A DNA stretch of 64,000 bases from Gammaproteobacteria bacterium (GTDB taxonomy: Bacteria; Pseudomonadota; Gammaproteobacteria; Arenicellales; Poriferihabitantaceae). The DNA lies in NCBI GenBank assembly GCA_047639475.1, contig JBLIOD010000003.1, forward strand, positions 25,875 to 89,874, in the 5' to 3' direction. A program made the position numbers and the translations under genes. Below the pieces are notes generated by a model. The model did not search any database and was not told the origin of the DNA. It worked only from the letters and a program-made list of their open reading frames with translations. Below are positions 15,250 through 19,985 of the stretch, one piece after another (position 1 is the stretch's first letter; every line of letters begins with the position of its first letter).

Positions 15250-16301
15250 GTGACTGGCTGTATAACCTGATCATGTCATGGACATTTTTTCCTGAGTGGA
15301 TGCTGATATTTGGTTGGAATCTTCTAAAAATTGTCGCGATTATTGGACCTTTAATGGTTTGCGTTGCGTACTTCACGTTCGCCGAGCGCAAATTGATTGG
15401 CTATATGCAAGACCGCATTGGCCCGAATCGAGTCGGGCCGAGGGGTTGGCTGCAGCCTGTCGCTGATGCGGTGAAGTTGATGTTCAAAGAGATCATCATT
15501 CCGAGCAAATCGAATAAATACTTGTTCCTAGGTGCGCCTTTGTTATCCATTGGCCCAGCGTTAGCCGCATGGGCAGTGATACCATTTACTGGCGACTTGG
15601 TGTTGGCGGATATAGATGCGAGTTTATTGTTCGTTTTGGCGCTAACCTCGATGGGGGTTTACGGCATCATCATTGCGGGTTGGGCATCAAACTCAAAATA
15701 TGCCTTCTTGGGCGCCATGCGATCGGCAGCCCAAATTGTTTCTTACGAAATTGCCATGGGCTTTGCGCTGGTCGGCGTGCTGATGTGCGCAGGTTCGTTA
15801 AATCTGGGTGATATTGTGAATGCCCAAGCAGGCGGCATTCATCAATGGTATTTCTTGCCCTTATTCCCTTTATTTATCGTCTATTTTATCTCTGGTGTTG
15901 CAGAAACCAACCGCGCCCCATTTGACGTGGCAGAAGGTGAATCCGAAATCGTTGCAGGCTTTCATGTCGAATATTCAGGCATGACTTTCGCGGTGTTCTT
16001 TTTAGCGGAATACGCCAACATGATCTTGATCTCGGCACTAACGGTGCTGCTGTTTTTAGGTGGCTGGCAACCGATCGCCGATGTTGCCCCTTTCACGTGG
16101 ATACCGGCATTTTTCTGGTTTTTCGGTAAAACCGCCTTTGTGGCGTTCTTCTTTTTATGGCTGCGTGCAACTTTTCCGCGCTATCGCTATGATCAAATCA
16201 TGCGTTTAGGGTGGAAAGTATTAATACCCGTTACCTTGGTTTGGATCGCCGTGATAGCCGTCGCGCGTTTCTTTACGCCTTTTGGCTTCATCTTTCAGTA
16301 G
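15246..16301 (+). CDS. nuoH: NADH-quinone oxidoreductase subunit H
   Basis: 351 aa polytopic. Motifs [19 protein letters not shown] and ETNRAPFD. Confidence 0.96.
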
Positions 16302-16309
16302 GATACAAA

Positions 16310-16807
16310 ATGGCTAATCGACTAAAAAACTTCATCAAGACCTTTGGCTTAATAGAGTTACTAAAGGGTATGAAAGTAACGGGCAAGCACTTAGTGGGGC
16401 CGAAGGCGACCATTATGTATCCCGAGGAAAAGACACCTAAATCAGTTCGTTTCCGCGGTATGCATGCACAGCGCCGTTATGAAGATGGCTCTGAGCGTTG
16501 CATTGCTTGCAAGCTTTGCGAGGCGGTATGTCCGGCGCTTGCCATTACGATTGAGTCGCATGAGCTGCCAACCGGTGAACGCAGAACCAAGCGTTATGAC
16601 ATCGATATGTTCAAATGCATTTACTGCGGCTTTTGTGAAGAGGCCTGTCCGGTAGATGCCATTGTAATGACCGACATCCACGAGTTCCACATGGAAGACG
16701 GCGCAGCAGAAAGAGTTTTCGATAAGCAAAAGCTACTTGAGATCGGCGACAAGTATGAAAAATCCATTGCGGCCAACCGTGCGCAAGATGCTCGGTATCA
16801 CACATAA
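16310..16807 (+). CDS. nuoI: NADH-quinone oxidoreductase subunit I
   Basis: Two ferredoxin motifs, [12 protein letters not shown] and [13 protein letters not shown] place the start at ATG 16310 (MANRLKNF...). The 33-codon extension in the ORF track (from 16211) overlaps nuoH. Confidence 0.93.
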
Positions 16808-16815
16808 ACAGTGAC

Positions 16816-17445
16816 ATGACATTTTTTCAGCTCACATTCTATTTCTTCGCCTCCGTTTCAGTGCTGGGTGCTTTGGCAGTGGTTACTGTCAAAAACCCTG
16901 TTAAAGCGGCATTGTTTCTGGTGTTGTCGTTTGTCGGCGCTTCAGGCGTTTGGCTTACCTTGCAGGCAGAGTTTCTAGCCATAGTATTGATACTGGTTTA
17001 TGTCGGTGCGGTGATGGTGCTATTTCTCTTCGTGGTAATGATGTTAGACGTTGATCTGGCAGCTATGCGAGCTGGCTTTACACGTTATTTGCCCTATGGC
17101 TTGCTTATCGCAGCTATCTTGGTCGCTCAGCTGGTGTTTGTATTCAATGGCAGTTTTAGCGCGGTTGATTTTGCTGCTCCTGCGCTTGATTTACCCGCCG
17201 ACTATTCAAATACCAAGGCGCTTGGTCGAATTATTTATACCGATTACGTGCTGGCCTTCGAAGCTGCAGCGCTAATATTACTGGTAGCGATGCTGGCAGC
17301 AATTGCGTTGACGCACCGCAAGCGCTCAACACCTAATAAATCCGTTAATCCAGCGCAACAAGTGGTGGTCACCAAGGAAGACCGGTTGCGTATTGTTGAT
17401 ATGGCATCTGAAAAGAGGCGTCCGGTTAAGAGGTCAAAGACATGA
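16816..17445 (+). CDS. nuoJ: NADH-quinone oxidoreductase subunit J
   Basis: 209 aa hydrophobic protein with a basic C-terminal tail, in the expected position in the operon. Confidence 0.9.
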
Positions 17446-17747
17446 TTCCATTAACGCACTATCTAACGCTTAGCGCGATCTTATTTGCACTGAGTATTAT
17501 CGGTATCTTTTTAAACCGTAAAAACCTGTTGATCATTTTGATGTCGATTGAATTACTGTTATTGGCAGTGAATATCAATTTCGTTGCGTTTTCGCATTTC
17601 TTGGGTGATTTACACGGACAAGTATTTGTCTTCTTTATTTTGACCGTTGCCGCTGCTGAAGCCGCGATTGGTTTAGCGATATTAATTGTACTTTTTAGAA
17701 ACCGTCAGACGATTAACGTCACTGACCTTGATTCATTGAAAGGATAG
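17442..17747 (+). CDS. nuoK: NADH-quinone oxidoreductase subunit K
   Basis: 101 aa, 3 TM, motif [16 protein letters not shown]. Confidence 0.95.
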
Positions 17748-17750
17748 CTC

Positions 17751-18016
17751 AGTGGTTCTTCAATCTAATCATTACGGATTCAGCGCGATTGTCTGCTCTC
17801 GCAGCAAGGCGTTGATTCGCAGACATAGTCACTCTATGTCAAGAACCAGCAACGCTGTTGAGGGAGCAGACAATCGCGCCCGAAGGGAGCTCAAGAGTCG
17901 CTGCATTGCGGTGTTGCAGCTCTTGCCAATGGGATCAATCATTGCCTACGAGCTGCGCCTTACACTGCAACGACTCTTGAGCTCTGAATTTGCAATTATT
18001 AGATTGAAGGACCACT
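17751..18016 (+). repeat. 266-nt nested inverted-repeat element (three-way-junction fold) filling the nuoK-nuoL spacer; either a MITE-like insertion or a structured mRNA segment
   Basis: Outer arms 17751-17783 and 17984-18016 give 33 paired positions with 2 mismatches and 3 G:U pairs. Inner perfect stems are 17783-17798/17864-17879 (16 bp), 17822-17828/17834-17840 (7 bp), 17887-17900/17971-17984 (14 bp) and 17916-17922/17950-17956 (7 bp). All pairings were read directly from the sequence. Confidence 0.8.
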
Positions 18017-18017
18017 A

Positions 18018-19985
18018 ATGACAGATATGTTTTCAATTTACCTAACTATTCCACTGCTGTGCTTGTTTGGTGCTTTAGTGGCGGGTTTTACGGGCCATAT
18101 TGTGGGACGTAAAGGCGCACACTGGATTACCATTCTGATGGTATTCGCAGCGTTTATTCTGTCAGTGGTGGTATATCAAGATGTGCGCGCAGGCAATATA
18201 TTTAATGGGCCTTTATATACTTGGGGCATCAGTGACGGTGTGTCTTACGATATCGGTTTTTTAATCGACGAATTGTCCACCACGATGATGGTTGTCGTCA
18301 CGTTTGTGTCTTTGATGGTGCATATTTATACCATCGGATATATGTCTGAAGATCCAGCTTATCAGCGATTCTTCGCCTTTATCTCTCTGTTCACTTTCGC
18401 CATGCTAATGCTGGTAATGTCGAATAATTTCCTGCAGTTGTTTTTTGGCTGGGAAGCAGTGGGCTTGGTGTCCTATTTGTTGATTGGTTTTTGGCATAGT
18501 AAAGAGACCGCTGTGTTTGCGAACATGAAAGCCTTTTTAGTTAATCGCGTGGGTGACTTTGGCTTTTTGCTAGGTATTGCCGGTGTATGGTATCTATTTG
18601 GCAGCCTAGACTACGAAGCCGTGTTTGCACAGGCCCCTAGTCGGGCTAGCGAAATTGCGAGTACGCCGTTTGGCGATATCAAATGGGTCACACTTATTTG
18701 CTTATTGTTATTTGTGGGCGCGATGGGCAAATCAGCCCAGTTTCCGCTCCATGTTTGGTTACCGGACTCAATGGAAGGCCCTACCCCCATTTCAGCGTTA
18801 ATCCATGCTGCAACTATGGTGACAGCAGGCATCTTTATGGTGGCCAGAATGTCGCCTTTGTATGAGTTATCAGAAGTTGCGCTATCGGCCATTCTAATCA
18901 TCGGCGCCACTACAGCAATATTCATGGCACTGATTGGTTTGGTGCAAAATGACATTAAACGGGTTGTCGCATACTCTACTTTATCGCAATTAGGCTATAT
19001 GACAGTTGCCCTGGGTGCGTCAGCTTATGAGGTGGCTATATTTCACTTAGGTACGCACGCTTTTTTTAAGGCTTTGCTGTTCTTGGGAGCAGGCTCTGTC
19101 ATCATCGCCATGCACCACGAGCAAGACATGCGCAAAATGGGCGGTTTACGTGCCATCATGCCGATCACTTACATCACCATGTTTATTGGTTCTTTAGCGC
19201 TCGCAGGCATACCGCCGTTCGCGGGTTTCTTTTCAAAAGACATGATCATTGAAGCGGTGCACGCGAGTGGCCTTCCTGGTGCAACCTACGCTTACTATGC
19301 CGTACTGTTGGGTGTGTTTATCACGGCGTTTTATTCTTTCCGCTTAATGTTTATGACCTTCCACGGTAATAACCGTGCGGATGAGCATACGCGTCATGGT
19401 CTAAAAGAATCACCTGGTGTGGTTGTTTGGCCGCTAATTTTATTGGCCATTCTTTCCGTTGTTGCAGGCATGTTATTCTTTGAGCCCGTAATGCTGGGTA
19501 ATTACTTTGGTAATGCGATAACTGTTTTCGCGCAGCACGATACCGTCGCGCATGTCGCTAATACCTTGCATGGCAGTGGTTTTGGTTTGCTAGGTGCAAC
19601 AATGTTGCATGCTTTCGTTACTTTGCCATTTTGGTTGGCGGTAGGCGGCATTGCTTTTGCGGTTTACTGTTATTTGATCAACCCAGCGCTGCCCGGCAAG
19701 ATTGCTCATGCATTTGGGCCTATCACCAGACTGTTAGAGAATAAATACTGGATAGATGAATTGTTCCAAAAGGTATTCGCTGATAGCTCAGTGTGCTTGG
19801 GCAAGAGCCTTTCAAAAAACATTGATTCAGGGCTAATCGACAGCGGAATTGTCAATGGCAGTGCACGATTTATCGGTGGTCTGTCTGGCAAGTTACGCCA
19901 GATACAATCAGGTTTTGTTTATCACTATGCCTTTGCCATGATAATTGGCTTGGTGTCGTTGATAGCTTTCGCCATTTGGGCTTAA
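18018..19985 (+). CDS. nuoL: NADH-quinone oxidoreductase subunit L
   Basis: 655 aa antiporter-like subunit (GWEAVGLVSYLLIGFW, SAQFPLHVWLPDSMEGPTP). GAAGGA Shine-Dalgarno at 18006-18011. Confidence 0.96.
   Translation: MTDMFSIYLTIPLLCLFGALVAGFTGHIVGRKGAHWITILMVFAAFILSVVVYQDVRAGNIFNGPLYTWGISDGVSYDIGFLIDELSTTMMVVVTFVSLMVHIYTIGYMSEDPAYQRFFAFISLFTFAMLMLVMSNNFLQLFFGWEAVGLVSYLLIGFWHSKETAVFANMKAFLVNRVGDFGFLLGIAGVWYLFGSLDYEAVFAQAPSRASEIASTPFGDIKWVTLICLLLFVGAMGKSAQFPLHVWLPDSMEGPTPISALIHAATMVTAGIFMVARMSPLYELSEVALSAILIIGATTAIFMALIGLVQNDIKRVVAYSTLSQLGYMTVALGASAYEVAIFHLGTHAFFKALLFLGAGSVIIAMHHEQDMRKMGGLRAIMPITYITMFIGSLALAGIPPFAGFFSKDMIIEAVHASGLPGATYAYYAVLLGVFITAFYSFRLMFMTFHGNNRADEHTRHGLKESPGVVVWPLILLAILSVVAGMLFFEPVMLGNYFGNAITVFAQHDTVAHVANTLHGSGFGLLGATMLHAFVTLPFWLAVGGIAFAVYCYLINPALPGKIAHAFGPITRLLENKYWIDELFQKVFADSSVCLGKSLSKNIDSGLIDSGIVNGSARFIGGLSGKLRQIQSGFVYHYAFAMIIGLVSLIAFAIWA

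What the first reader, a model, noticed from the sequence alone, without database searches (positions are those of the whole stretch)
17748..18020. A 266-nt nested-palindrome element fills the nuoK-nuoL spacer and pairs the nuoL Shine-Dalgarno with sequence just after the nuoK stop
Every other junction in this nuo operon is tight, from a 4-nt overlap to a 39-nt gap. nuoK-nuoL is 270 nt.

The spacer is almost entirely one element with a three-way-junction fold:
- The outer helix pairs 17751-17783 with 17984-18016. That is 33 positions, with 2 mismatches and 3 G:U pairs.
- It closes two hairpins of about 97 nt each.
- The first hairpin has a 16-bp perfect stem (17783-17798/17864-17879), capped by 17822-17828/17834-17840.
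- The second has a 14-bp perfect stem (17887-17900/17971-17984), with an inner 7-bp stem (17916-17922/17950-17956).

The G:U positions (17757/18010, 17776/17991, 17777/17990) are pairs only in the plus sense, which is the mRNA sense. On the other strand they would be C:A mismatches. That points to RNA-level structure rather than DNA-level structure.

The outer helix begins 3 nt after the nuoK stop (17745-17747) and ends 1 nt before the nuoL ATG (18018). The nuoL SD GAAGGA (18006-18011) is base-paired to UUCUUC (17756-17761).

Model: the insert is structurally looped out, which brings the nuoK stop and the nuoL start together. A ribosome terminating on nuoK would melt the left arm and release the SD, giving long-range translational coupling.

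Alternative: a MITE-like selfish insertion. I see no target-site duplication (flanks CTC / AATG) and no second copy in this window.
Basis: partly seen in the sequence, partly recalled or inferred. Interest (0 to 1): 0.7.

Follow-up and report, generated by a model that had tools for sequence, protein, structure and literature searches.

The report
Translatable MITE between nuoK and nuoL
The 266-base, tightly folded spacer between two respiratory-complex genes is one copy of a small mobile DNA element also found in other salt- and sediment-dwelling Gammaproteobacteria, and its ends carry a start codon, an open 88-codon frame, stop codons and a ribosome-binding site that may let ribosomes cross it without breaking the operon.

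Summary

It is not a conserved regulatory RNA. The closest relatives (NuoL 78-87% identical) have 2-10-nt nuoK-nuoL spacers. The same element occurs at about 12 unrelated loci in other Gammaproteobacteria, including two copies in one Wenzhouxiangellaceae MAG. It keeps the same terminal inverted repeats, the same three-way fold and CTA/TAG-type flanks. It is therefore a lineage-specific insertion of an undescribed MITE family. The pairing of the Shine-Dalgarno sequence (SD) to the post-stop sequence is simply its terminal inverted repeat.

One feature was unexpected. Three other copies also sit in tight operon junctions, and a fourth sits between two co-directional genes. In each, as here, an ORF starts at the element's first GTG or just upstream and crosses the whole element. 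Here and at nuoC-nuoD and 2-oxoacid dehydrogenase E1alpha-E1beta it is exactly 88 codons and ends at a stop that overlaps or abuts the downstream start. Four complete copies found by DNA pattern alone lie elsewhere and carry stops in every frame.

I infer, but cannot show, that ribosomes are relayed across the insert. Strand-specific G:U evidence for an RNA-level function is not supported across the family.

The parts
17442..17747 (+). nuoK (101 aa), stop TAG at 17745-17747
   Evidence: Pfam PF00420, E = 1.4e-28. Identical gene call on same-species contigs.
17739..17744 (+). AAAGGA inside the nuoK 3' end. It is probably the ancestral nuoL Shine-Dalgarno and now lies 7 nt upstream of GTG 17752.
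   Evidence: Read from the sequence. Relatives without the insert have AAAGGA/AAGGG 7-12 nt before their nuoL start. The function is inferred.
17750..17751 (.). Left flanking dinucleotide CA, a candidate degenerate copy of a TA target-site duplication
   Evidence: Flank table of the ten complete copies listed (nine independent loci): 13 of 18 flanking dinucleotides are TA and the other 5 differ by one transition.
17751..18016 (+). The 266-nt element (AGTGG...CCACT), a member of a dispersed MITE family
   Evidence: Family HMM hit at E = 6e-69. Aligns along its whole length with copies in other genomes. Absent from relatives' junctions.
17751..17783 (+). Left terminal inverted repeat, the 5' arm of the outer helix. 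It contains the GTG at 17752. Stops follow in the other two inbound frames: TAA at 17766-17768, inside the repeat, in the frame of nuoK, and TGA at 17813-17815, inside hairpin 1, in the third frame.
17783..17879 (+). Hairpin 1 (16-bp perfect basal stem, 7-bp cap)
   Evidence: Pairing is kept through compensatory changes in other copies.
17880..17886 (+). Central CC-GAA-GG mini-hairpin. The GCGCCCGAAGGG motif is conserved in the family in either orientation.
17887..17984 (+). Hairpin 2 (14-bp perfect basal stem, 7-bp inner stem)
17984..18016 (+). Right terminal inverted repeat, the 3' arm of the outer helix. With the flanking TA it carries outward-facing stops in all three frames.
18006..18011 (+). 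GAAGGA, the SD-like core of the right TIR, 6 nt before the nuoL ATG. It is fully paired in the free mRNA.
   Evidence: Unpaired probability 0.00 when free. Only 18010-18011 open with a ribosome on the nuoK stop. An SD-like core is present in 14 of 20 family ends.
17752..18018 (+). 88-codon ORF running from GTG (first triplet of the element proper) to TAA, which overlaps the nuoL ATG (TAATG). Candidate relay ORF.
   Evidence: No Pfam or NCBIfam family. 40% identical (E = 1e-4) to the 88-aa ORFs of other copies. Zero stops, against an expected open-frame probability of about 0.05 in structure-preserving shuffles.
18016..18017 (.). Right flanking dinucleotide TA (candidate target-site duplication), which forms the TAA stop of the ORF
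18018..19985 (+). nuoL (655 aa)
   Evidence: Pfam PF00662 and PF00361. Homologues at 78-87% identity.
17735..17749 (+). The nuoK 3' end is complementary to nuoL codons 2-7 (18023-18037). This extends the closing helix beyond the element (15 nt, 80%).
   Evidence: pair I4. Present in the MFE of 17700-18060. Significance unknown.

Best explanation
**What it is.** The spacer is a recent, lineage-specific insertion of a 266-bp non-autonomous transposable element (a MITE) from a family not described in the sources searched here. The family is scattered through uncultured Gammaproteobacteria, including Wenzhouxiangellaceae. The element is AGTGG...CCACT at 17751-18016, or 264 bp GTGG...CCAC if the flanking dinucleotides are counted as a TA duplication. 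It landed in the 4-nt gap between the nuoK stop and the nuoL start.

**Anatomy.** It consists of ~33-bp terminal inverted repeats and two ~97-nt internal hairpins around a CCCGAAGGG centre. Any transcript of it, on either strand, folds into a closed three-way junction. That is why the nuoL SD, which lies in the right repeat, pairs with sequence just after the nuoK stop, which lies in the left repeat.

**Shown.**
- The structure.
- Absence of the element in relatives.
- Dispersed family members sharing the architecture and the CTA|GTGG...CCAC|TAG ends.

**Inferred.**
- Cut-and-paste transposition by an unidentified DDE transposase of a TA-duplicating type (IS630- or IS5/IS427-like).

**How the operon most likely survives (inferred, about 0.4).** The element's ends act as a built-in non-polar module.
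1. The ribosome that terminates at nuoK TAG has already unwound the base of the outer helix.
2. It re-initiates 4 nt downstream at GTG 17752. This is the first triplet of the element and is served by the old nuoL SD, AAAGGA, 7 nt upstream.
3. It translates the 88-codon frame, unwinding the whole fold.
4. It terminates at TAA, which overlaps the nuoL ATG (TAATG), and re-initiates on nuoL.

The repeat-borne GAAGGA and the physical closeness of the two helix ends may add to this.
For: **Insertion.**
- Four same-species contigs carry the identical 270-nt spacer.
- Relatives with 85-87% and 78% identical NuoL, in the same nuoH-I-J-K-L-M-N order, have spacers of 5, 10, 5 and 2 nt.

**Dispersed family.**
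- A 19-nt TIR pattern found full copies in three other MAGs, including two loci of one Wenzhouxiangellaceae MAG (L012, L013), and in a sediment metagenome.
- Protein searches with ORFs translated from the element found more copies.
- In all there are about 12 unrelated loci.

**Shared architecture.**
- 96 consensus pairs over nine copies. 34 of them are kept through double changes, including in the TIRs (L033 CATCCAGC/GCTGGATG, L038 AGTAC/GTACT).

**Flanks.**
- 13 of 18 flanking dinucleotides are TA and the rest are one transition away.
- The next base outward is C on the left and G on the right in most copies, giving a CTAG-like target.

**Filled versus empty site inside a gene.**
- L011 carries exactly 267 extra nt where the intact relative L040 and 11 other homologues have one codon.

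**No match to known families.**
- No Rfam family matches.
- No similar DNA in E. coli genomes, plasmids or phages.

**Relay step.**
- Copies between nuoC and nuoD (L023/L028), between 2-oxoacid dehydrogenase E1alpha and E1beta (L033), and between a small ORF and a rhodanese gene (L038) each carry an uninterrupted ORF in the same frame.
- In L023/L028 and L033 that ORF starts at the element's first GTG. In L038 it starts at an ATG 9 nt upstream of the element, overlapping the upstream stop (ATGA).
- The start is next to or overlapping the upstream gene's end. In L023/L028 and L033 the ORF ends at a stop overlapping or 1 nt before the downstream start (TAGTG, TAATG, TGAcATG). In L038 it runs 47 nt past the element and stops 35 nt before the rhodanese start.
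- The four complete copies found by DNA pattern alone, all in other contexts, are 267 or 259 nt long and have stops in every frame.
- The 267-nt type differs by one base in a hairpin loop, and that base closes the frame on both strands.
- Structure-preserving shuffles leave the frame open in 5% (window) to 18% of trials, and open on both strands in 0.4-4%.
- The amino-acid sequence is not conserved. dN/dS is 0.4-0.8, within the range of control frames. AlphaFold2 gives pLDDT 45.
- The repeat-borne SD is degraded in L033 (GGATGGA), while its ORF is intact.
Against: - No autonomous partner or transposase with these TIRs was found in any sequence held.
- The copy number in the window's own genome is unknown. 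There is one copy in 64 kb, and the genome was not in either scanned collection.
- The family looks small: about 12 loci in very large collections.
- TA and CTAG are palindromes, so a duplication cannot be told apart from a longer inverted repeat.
- The one site that can be reconstructed (L011) fits a TA duplication only with an extra C-to-T change.

For the relay step:
- Three of the four operon-junction ORF copies were found through a protein database, which can only hold open frames. The association with operon junctions is therefore biased.
- The one unbiased case, the window, has p of about 0.05-0.09 on its own.
- The orthologous pair L023/L028 differs at only 12 positions, too few to show selection against stops.
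- No expression data exist.
Confidence: 0.8

Rival explanations
1. First reader's main model. The spacer is an evolved cis-regulatory RNA of the nuo operon. The fold sequesters the nuoL SD, and a ribosome terminating on nuoK melts the left arm, releases the SD and gives long-range translational coupling.
For: - The SD is fully paired in the free mRNA (unpaired probability 0.00).
- The helix starts 3 nt after the stop and ends 1 nt before the ATG.
- The plus strand folds 5 kcal/mol better than the minus strand over 17740-18025, and 7.6 kcal/mol better over the 266-nt element alone.
- Six of six transitions at paired sites between the orthologous copies L023 and L028 alternate between Watson-Crick and G:U on the sense strand.
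Against: - The element is not conserved at this locus in any relative.
- The same sequence occurs at unrelated loci, including inside a peptidase gene and in divergent intergenic DNA.
- The pairing is a terminal inverted repeat.
- A ribosome footprint at the stop frees only 2 of the 6 SD bases.
- There is no consistent sense-strand G:U bias across the family.
- The repeat SD is degraded in the E1alpha-E1beta copy.

As a by-product effect of the insertion it remains possible. As an evolved locus-specific device it is not supported.
Confidence: 0.08
2. The MITE insertion acts mainly as an RNA processing and stability element. The long perfect duplexes are cut by RNase III or similar, as reported for other co-transcribed MITEs. 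This would split nuoA-K and nuoL-N into separate mRNAs, with nuoL translated from the processed 5' end.
For: - The fold has 16-bp and 14-bp perfect stems and a 33-bp outer helix.
- Co-transcribed MITEs are reported to regulate mRNA stability, and ERIC is reported to create an RNase E site (PMC3184786).
- No intrinsic terminator and no excess of promoter-like sites lies in or next to the element, so it is probably co-transcribed.
Against: - Nothing in the sequence tests cleavage.
- After a cut in the outer helix the SD would still sit in a duplex.
- It does not explain the open 88-codon frames that are exactly bounded by the neighbouring stop and start codons in four loci.
- It is compatible with the best explanation rather than exclusive of it.
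Confidence: 0.15
3. The 88-codon ORF (17752-18018) is a real gene for a small basic protein carried by the element.
For: - Open frames of exactly 88 codons occur in the window, L023/L028 and L033.
- Weak protein-level similarity: 39-41% identity, E = 1e-4 to 1e-3.
Against: - No Pfam or NCBIfam family.
- dN/dS is 0.4-0.8 and no different from shifted control frames.
- The frame is also open on the opposite strand in L023, L028 and L033.
- Most copies have stops.
- AlphaFold2 gives mean pLDDT 45 and pTM 0.28.
- The protein similarity is what 61% DNA identity in a fixed frame would give.
Confidence: 0.03
4. Ribosomes hop or shunt over the folded insert without translating it, in the manner of T4 gene 60 bypassing or a viral shunt. 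The closed helix brings take-off and landing sites together.
For: - The last nuoK codon and stop read GGA TAG, the same as the gene 60 take-off site.
- GGA recurs at 18009-18011, in frame with nuoL (read from the sequence).
- In copy L011, TAT TAG precedes the insert and a TAT lies two codons after it.
- Gene 60 features are taken from PMC5009743.
Against: - The gap is 264 nt, against 50 nt for gene 60.
- The GGA match follows trivially from both sites being SD-like AAGGA.
- A hop would fuse NuoK to NuoL.
- No matched codons exist at the nuoC-nuoD or E1alpha-E1beta copies.
- No nascent-peptide signal was examined.
Confidence: 0.02

Closest known systems
Bacterial MITEs in general (definition as in Delihas 2011, PMC3184786)
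   Same: - Small and without a transposase.
- Terminal inverted repeats and a very stable predicted fold.
- Dispersed copies, with filled and empty orthologous sites.
- Often co-transcribed with neighbouring genes.
   Different: - At 266 bp it is longer than most bacterial MITEs, which the review puts at generally under 200 bp and up to about 400 bp.
- It is an inverted duplication of a ~130-nt unit (repeat plus hairpin), which gives a three-way junction rather than one hairpin.
- Its partner IS is unknown.
- Its sequence matches nothing in Rfam, E. coli genomes, plasmids or phages.
Correia elements (CREE/NEMIS) of Neisseria, and ERIC/IRU of Enterobacteriaceae
   Same: - MITEs with TIRs.
- A 5'-TA-3' motif at both termini, reported for ERIC-type elements (PMC3184786).
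- They lie in transcribed intergenic DNA, form hairpins in mRNA and affect mRNA fate.
- ERIC-type repeats can carry ORFs (PMC2759123, title and abstract).
   Different: - Different hosts, sizes (about 104-157 bp and about 127 bp) and sequences.
- Those elements are described as acting on mRNA stability or promoters. They are not described as bridging a stop and a start codon with a complete ORF.
- A 2024 review of prokaryotic MITE functions does not mention ribosome-binding sites, start codons or stop codons at all.
Rickettsia palindromic elements (RPE) and other in-frame intragenic MITEs
   Same: Palindromic mobile elements that stay open in one frame and are tolerated in essential genes because ribosomes read through them (PMC10969869).
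   Different: - RPEs are about 150 bp and are translated as part of the host protein.
- Here the frame is a separate cistron between two genes.
- The one intragenic copy (L011) has the right length (267 nt) but carries stop codons.
Neisseria REP2 and Borrelia IR repeats
   Same: Repeats located immediately upstream of genes that bring a ribosome-binding site and a start codon (PMC3184786).
   Different: - Those repeats also bring a promoter and sit at the 5' ends of genes.
- They are not TIR-bounded insertions inside operons and do not carry a through-ORF.
Translational coupling by termination-reinitiation at overlapping stop/start signals (own knowledge), and engineered non-polar cassettes that carry stops in three frames plus an SD and start (own knowledge)
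   Same: - TAGctcaGTG at the upstream end and TAATG at the downstream end.
- Stops in all three outward frames in 13 of 20 family ends, and an SD-like core in 14 of 20.
   Different: - It would be a natural, mobile version.
- Nothing here shows that the signals are used.

Membership tests
MITE (miniature inverted-repeat transposable element) | Small size and no transposase gene | tested here: met
   266 nt. Its only ORF (88 aa) matches no Pfam or NCBIfam family.
MITE (miniature inverted-repeat transposable element) | Terminal inverted repeats | tested here: met
   33-36-nt arms with 28 of 33 Watson-Crick pairs. The same ends occur in all family copies, with compensated changes.
MITE (miniature inverted-repeat transposable element) | Several dispersed copies at unrelated loci, including within one genome | tested here: met
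   About 12 loci in different genomes. Two are in one Wenzhouxiangellaceae MAG (L012, L013). For the window's own genome this could not be tested, since only 64 kb is held and it contains one copy.
MITE (miniature inverted-repeat transposable element) | Filled versus empty orthologous sites | tested here: met
   nuoK-nuoL is 270 nt here and 2-10 nt in six loci fetched from relatives. The S9 peptidase gene is filled in L011 and intact in L040.
MITE (miniature inverted-repeat transposable element) | Target-site duplication flanking the repeats | tested here: inconclusive
   TA on 13 of 18 flanks, with four loci perfect TA/TA. The window is CA/TA. TA is palindromic, so it cannot be separated from a longer IR. 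The L011 empty site needs one extra substitution under any model.
MITE (miniature inverted-repeat transposable element) | An autonomous IS with the same terminal repeats | not testable with these tools
   None appeared among the loci returned by the TIR pattern scans. L016/L022 show only a solo 24-nt TIR.
IS630/Tc1-mariner-derived (or IS5/IS427-type) MITE | TA duplication in a CTAG-like target, and a cognate DDE transposase (criteria from my own knowledge) | tested here: inconclusive
   The consensus flanks C-TA|...|TA-G fit. No transposase was identified.
Conserved cis-regulatory RNA of the nuo operon | Conservation at the orthologous locus with covariation | tested here: not met
   Absent in all relatives examined. 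No Rfam match at E <= 1.
ERIC/IRU or REP/BIME of enterobacteria | Sequence similarity to the enterobacterial repeat families | tested here: not met
   No blastn match in 5,426 complete E. coli genomes, which carry those repeats.
RPE-like in-frame translated insertion | Inserted in frame within a host ORF and read as part of the host protein | tested here: not met
   In the window it lies between genes, in a frame different from both. L011 adds 267 nt in frame but has an in-frame TAG at the junction and further stops.
Termination-reinitiation coupling | Stop and next start overlapping or within a few nt, at both ends of the bridging ORF | tested here: met
   The sequence signals are met. nuoK TAG is followed 4 nt later by GTG 17752, and TAA 18016-18018 overlaps ATG 18018. 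The same geometry occurs in L023, L028 and L033. Actual re-initiation cannot be tested here.
T4 gene 60-type translational bypass | [quoted passage not shown] | tested here: inconclusive
   GGA TAG ... GGA in frame with nuoL is present in the window. It is absent at the other operon copies. The gap is 264 nt, and the nascent-peptide signal was not examined.

The most novel reading that the evidence does not exclude
The element is not merely tolerated in operons. Its ends may be an evolved 'translation-transparent' module made of:
- TA|GTG, which regenerates the upstream stop and supplies an overlapping start;
- a 264-nt body kept free of stops in that frame, in some copies on both strands, so that either orientation works;
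- CAC|TA(A/G), which supplies a stop on the next start codon;
- outward stops in all frames, and an SD.

Ribosomes leaving the upstream gene would be relayed through, or shunted across the closed base of, the 266-nt fold onto the downstream gene. This would let a MITE colonise translationally coupled junctions of essential multi-subunit operons (nuoK-L, nuoC-D, E1alpha-E1beta) without polarity.
Probability: 0.3. Interest if true: 0.75.

Novelty: new member of a known kind. Interest (0 to 1): 0.5.

Why it matters
As a MITE insertion the finding is ordinary, and it removes the claim of a dedicated nuo riboregulator.

What could matter is how an insert folding at about -148 kcal/mol, and burying the next gene's SD, persists inside an essential, stoichiometric operon. 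Persistence is documented in four contigs fetched from three JGI metagenomes and one SRA run. An orthologous nuoC-nuoD copy in two lineages has diverged by 4% and is still open.

If the built-in start/ORF/stop is used, this would be a natural 'non-polar' mobile element. It would also be a simple system for studying termination-reinitiation and ribosome unwinding across very stable RNA. It would explain why some repeats can enter the 'repeat deserts' of housekeeping genes.

It is also a practical caution. Gene callers annotate these 88-aa frames as hypothetical proteins.

Tried and rejected
1. **Known RNA family.** Rfam at E <= 1 on the window region, and at E <= 0.1 on three other copies, found nothing but an unrelated tRNA.
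2. **Second copy or partner IS in the window.** blastn with word size 7 and a family HMM found none.
3. **Similar DNA in plasmids, phages or E. coli genomes.** None. The viral contig scan returned 0.
4. **Strand test (G:U versus A:C) for RNA-level selection.** Inconsistent across copies, so dropped as evidence.
5. **Element orientation.** The element is about 67% identical to its own reverse complement, so 'orientation' is nearly undefined. I stopped using it.
6. **Protein-coding test of the ORF.** dN/dS against shifted frames, family scans and AlphaFold2 give no sign of a real protein.
7. **Exact target duplication from an intragenic copy.** The empty site was recovered (L040), but it does not discriminate between models.
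8. **Empty site for the E1alpha-E1beta copy in the window.** The window lacks that operon.
9. **Literature.** No paper combines MITEs with translational coupling. The TIR sequence appears only in unrelated primer lists. The 2024 MITE census paper has no supplementary text held.
10. **Pattern-scan hits L017-L021.** These appear to be chance 19-mers in unrelated, eukaryote-like DNA. L019 is a possible remnant.

Full report
**1. The observation**

The region was read directly. nuoK (17442-17747, stop TAG) and nuoL (18018-19985) are confirmed by Pfam. They are separated by 270 nt, whereas the other nuo junctions range from a 4-nt overlap to a 39-nt gap.

- a 33-position outer helix with 28 Watson-Crick pairs, 3 G:U pairs and 2 mismatches;
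- perfect 16-bp and 7-bp stems in hairpin 1;
- perfect 14-bp and 7-bp stems in hairpin 2;
- GAAGGA (18006-18011) opposite TTCTTC (17756-17761).

The MFE fold is the proposed three-way junction at -148.7 kcal/mol, with z = -11.9 against dinucleotide shuffles. The complementary strand folds nearly as well at -143.4 kcal/mol. No Rfam family matches, and there is no second copy in the window.

**2. The element is an insertion, not a conserved feature of the locus**

The exact NuoK protein occurs on 18 public contigs. The four fetched carry an identical 270-nt spacer. The closest other NuoL proteins are 87, 86, 85 and 78% identical. Their contigs have the same gene order, but their nuoK-nuoL spacers are 5, 10, 5 and 2 nt. 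Removing 17751-18016 from the window leaves TAG-CTCA-ATG, an ordinary tight junction.

**3. The element belongs to a dispersed family**

A scan of one genome per species with the 19-nt terminal repeat returned four loci, and all are real copies:
- one in a gammaproteobacterial MAG (L011);
- two at different loci of one Wenzhouxiangellaceae MAG (L012, L013);
- one cut by a contig end in a Wenzhouxiangella MAG (L014).

The metagenome scan added one full copy (L015). It also found a solo 24-nt repeat remnant that lies exactly between a stop codon and the next ATG (L016/L022).

The copies are 259-308 nt long. They share the ends AGTGGTCCTTCAAYCTAAT...ATTAGRTTGAAGGACCACT, the central GCGCCCGAAGGG motif and the two-hairpin architecture. 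The window copy is only about 61-67% identical to them, yet it aligns from end to end. Over nine copies, 96 consensus pairs are predicted and 34 are maintained through double changes, including within the terminal repeats.

The element is itself about 67% identical to its own reverse complement. In effect it is an inverted duplication of a ~130-nt unit made of a repeat plus a hairpin.

Flanks are as follows:
- The two bases outside GTGG...CCAC are TA in 13 of 18 cases, and one transition from TA in the rest. The window is CA/TA.
- The next bases outward are mostly C and G, so the target looks like C-TA-G.

Because TA and CTAG are palindromes, a duplication cannot be separated from a longer repeat.

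The one copy inside a gene (L011, an S9 peptidase) adds exactly 267 nt where 12 homologues have a single codon, Q in 11 of them. The intact relative L040 reads GAC CAG GTG at that point. The junction now reads TAG on both sides, which needs one extra C-to-T change under any model.

No transposase partner was seen. No similar DNA exists in plasmids, phages or E. coli genomes. No paper in the library holds the repeat sequence in a relevant context.

Measured against the published MITE definition of TIRs, direct repeats, no transposase, a stable fold, and filled and empty sites (PMC3184786), this is a MITE of an undescribed family. The duplication and the partner IS are still open.

**4.

The SD is indeed completely paired in the free transcript (unpaired probability 0.00), but it is paired because it lies in a terminal inverted repeat.

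I forced the footprint of a ribosome sitting on the nuoK stop to be unpaired. This opens 18010-18019 (the spacer and the first two bases of the AUG), while GAAG of the SD stays paired at about 0.99. The 'release' is therefore partial.

The argument that G:U pairs prove an RNA-level structure fails across the family. Strand preference is inconsistent, and one copy folds 25 kcal/mol better on the non-coding-sense strand. A weak hint in the other direction comes from L023 versus L028, where six of six transitions at paired sites alternate between Watson-Crick and G:U on the sense strand.

**5. An unexpected regularity**

The window copy contains an 88-codon ORF (17752-18018). Its GTG is the first triplet after the flanking dinucleotide. 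It lies 4 nt after the nuoK stop and 7 nt after AAAGGA, which is probably the old nuoL SD. Its TAA overlaps the nuoL ATG as TAATG.

Searching protein collections with frames translated from the element found ORFs spanning other copies. Their contexts are striking:
- **L023-L031.** The copy lies between nuoC and nuoD, with GTG 3001 and a stop TAG or TAA overlapping the nuoD start. nuoC reads 18 nt into the repeat.
- **L033-L037.** The copy lies between 2-oxoacid dehydrogenase E1alpha and E1beta. The E1alpha stop TAG is made of TA plus the element's first G, and it overlaps the ORF's GTG. The ORF's TGA lies 1 nt before the E1beta ATG.
- **L038.** The copy lies between a small ORF and a rhodanese gene. 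An ATG overlaps the upstream TGA, and the frame is open through the element.

All four of these are the 266-nt length class. In that class the only inbound frame free of repeat-encoded stops (GTG GTC CTT...) and the only outbound one (...AAG GAC CAC TAx) coincide.

The complete copies found by DNA pattern alone lie in other contexts, are 267 or 259 nt long, and have stops in every frame. The 267-nt type differs by one base in a hairpin loop, and that base closes the frame on both strands. In L023, L028 and L033 the frame is open on both strands.

Statistical context:
- Shuffles that keep the structure and composition leave the sense frame open in 5% (window) to 18% of trials, and both strands open in 0.4-4%.
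- The other frames carry 1-4 internal stops.

The peptide itself is not conserved:
- dN/dS is 0.4-0.8, indistinguishable from shifted frames.
- No family matches.
- AlphaFold2 gives mean pLDDT 45.

Thirteen of 20 family ends have stops in all three outward frames, and 14 of 20 have an SD-like core 8-10 nt from the tip. The SD is degraded in L033, while its ORF is intact.

**6. Interpretation**

Shown:
- a folded 266-nt MITE copy inserted into the nuoK-nuoL junction;
- start, ORF and stop signals placed for termination-reinitiation at both ends;
- the same geometry at three other junctions between co-directional genes.

Inferred (about 0.4): ribosomes leaving nuoK restart at GTG 17752, unwind the fold by translating it, stop on TAATG and restart on nuoL. 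The repeat-borne SD and the closeness of the helix ends act as auxiliaries.

Caveat: three of the four junction copies were found through a protein database, which can only contain open frames. The window alone gives p of about 0.05-0.09.

RNase-mediated processing of the duplexes, as described for other co-transcribed MITEs (PMC3184786), is a compatible alternative that I could not test. No terminator and no excess of promoter-like sites is present.

**7. Comparison and novelty**

The closest described things are:
- Correia and ERIC-type MITEs (TIRs, TA flanks, co-transcription, effects on mRNA stability);
- RPEs (palindromic elements that are read through in frame);
- Neisseria REP2 and Borrelia IR repeats, which bring an RBS and an ATG.

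A 2024 review of MITE functions mentions no RBS, start-codon or stop-codon role. No paper links MITEs with translational coupling.

I file the finding as a new member of a known kind, a MITE. The 'translation-transparent' reading is the novel case, at probability about 0.3.

Noticed in passing
L023:4521-4790: In the organism whose nuoC-nuoD junction holds a copy of this family, the next junction (nuoD-nuoE) is also 270 nt. It is filled by a different nested palindrome, with arms 4521-4539/4650-4668 and 4546-4573/4615-4642. nuo junctions in these halophile-type genomes seem to accumulate palindromic inserts.
   Followed up: partly
L022:1357-1380 (= L016:4852-4875): A solo 24-nt copy of the terminal repeat (TGATTAGGTTGAAGGACCACT AG) exactly fills the gap between the stop of a 179-aa membrane-protein ORF and the ATG of a 457-aa ORF. 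By eye these look like DsbB and a class II DAHP synthase, but this was not tested. The repeat supplies GAAGGA 8 nt before that ATG. It may be a footprint of an excised or deleted element.
   Followed up: partly
window 17742-17747 and 18009-18011: nuoK ends GGA TAG, the same codon pair as the T4 gene 60 take-off site. GGA recurs at 18009-18011 in frame with nuoL. This is almost certainly a side effect of both sites being SD-like AAGGA, but it is the formal signature of a bypass site.
   Followed up: partly
window 18018 vs 18027: nuoL has two in-frame ATGs 9 nt apart (ATG ACA GAT ATG). The N-termini of relatives L006 and L007 align with the second, and the L005 call aligns with the first. If 18027 is the true start, the repeat-borne SD is too far away (15 nt) and the TAATG overlap would not be the restart point.
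   Followed up: no
window 17735-17749 / 18023-18037: The last 13 nt of nuoK (including its stop) plus the 2 nt that follow are 80% complementary to nuoL codons 2-7, which lengthens the closing helix beyond the element. By eye the match is weaker (8 of 15) in the closest relative without the insert (L005).
   Followed up: partly
L011:4289-5536 and L040:2001-2465: The copy in L011 splits an S9-family peptidase gene after residue ~128. There is an in-frame TAG at the left junction, and a GTG start 2 nt after the right end, preceded by the repeat's GAAGGA. The downstream fragment could still be translated as a separate polypeptide. In L040 the intact relative's ORF is itself truncated at 154 aa for another reason.
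   Followed up: partly
L009:6153-7608: In one relative's contig the nuoN gene is called as two pieces (80 aa and 367 aa) with a 110-nt gap. This could be a frameshift, an assembly error or another small insertion.
   Followed up: no
L039:819-1113: This is a longer variant of the family (295 nt) with extra sequence in both hairpins. Its repeats carry a compensated change (CGTCAA/TTGACG) that weakens the SD-like core to GACGGA. Its flanks are a perfect CTAG...CTAG.
   Followed up: partly
window 16211-16807: The mechanical ORF list starts nuoI at GTG 16211, which overlaps nuoH by 91 nt. Gene calls on the identical contig start it about 99 nt later, 8 nt after nuoH.
   Followed up: yes
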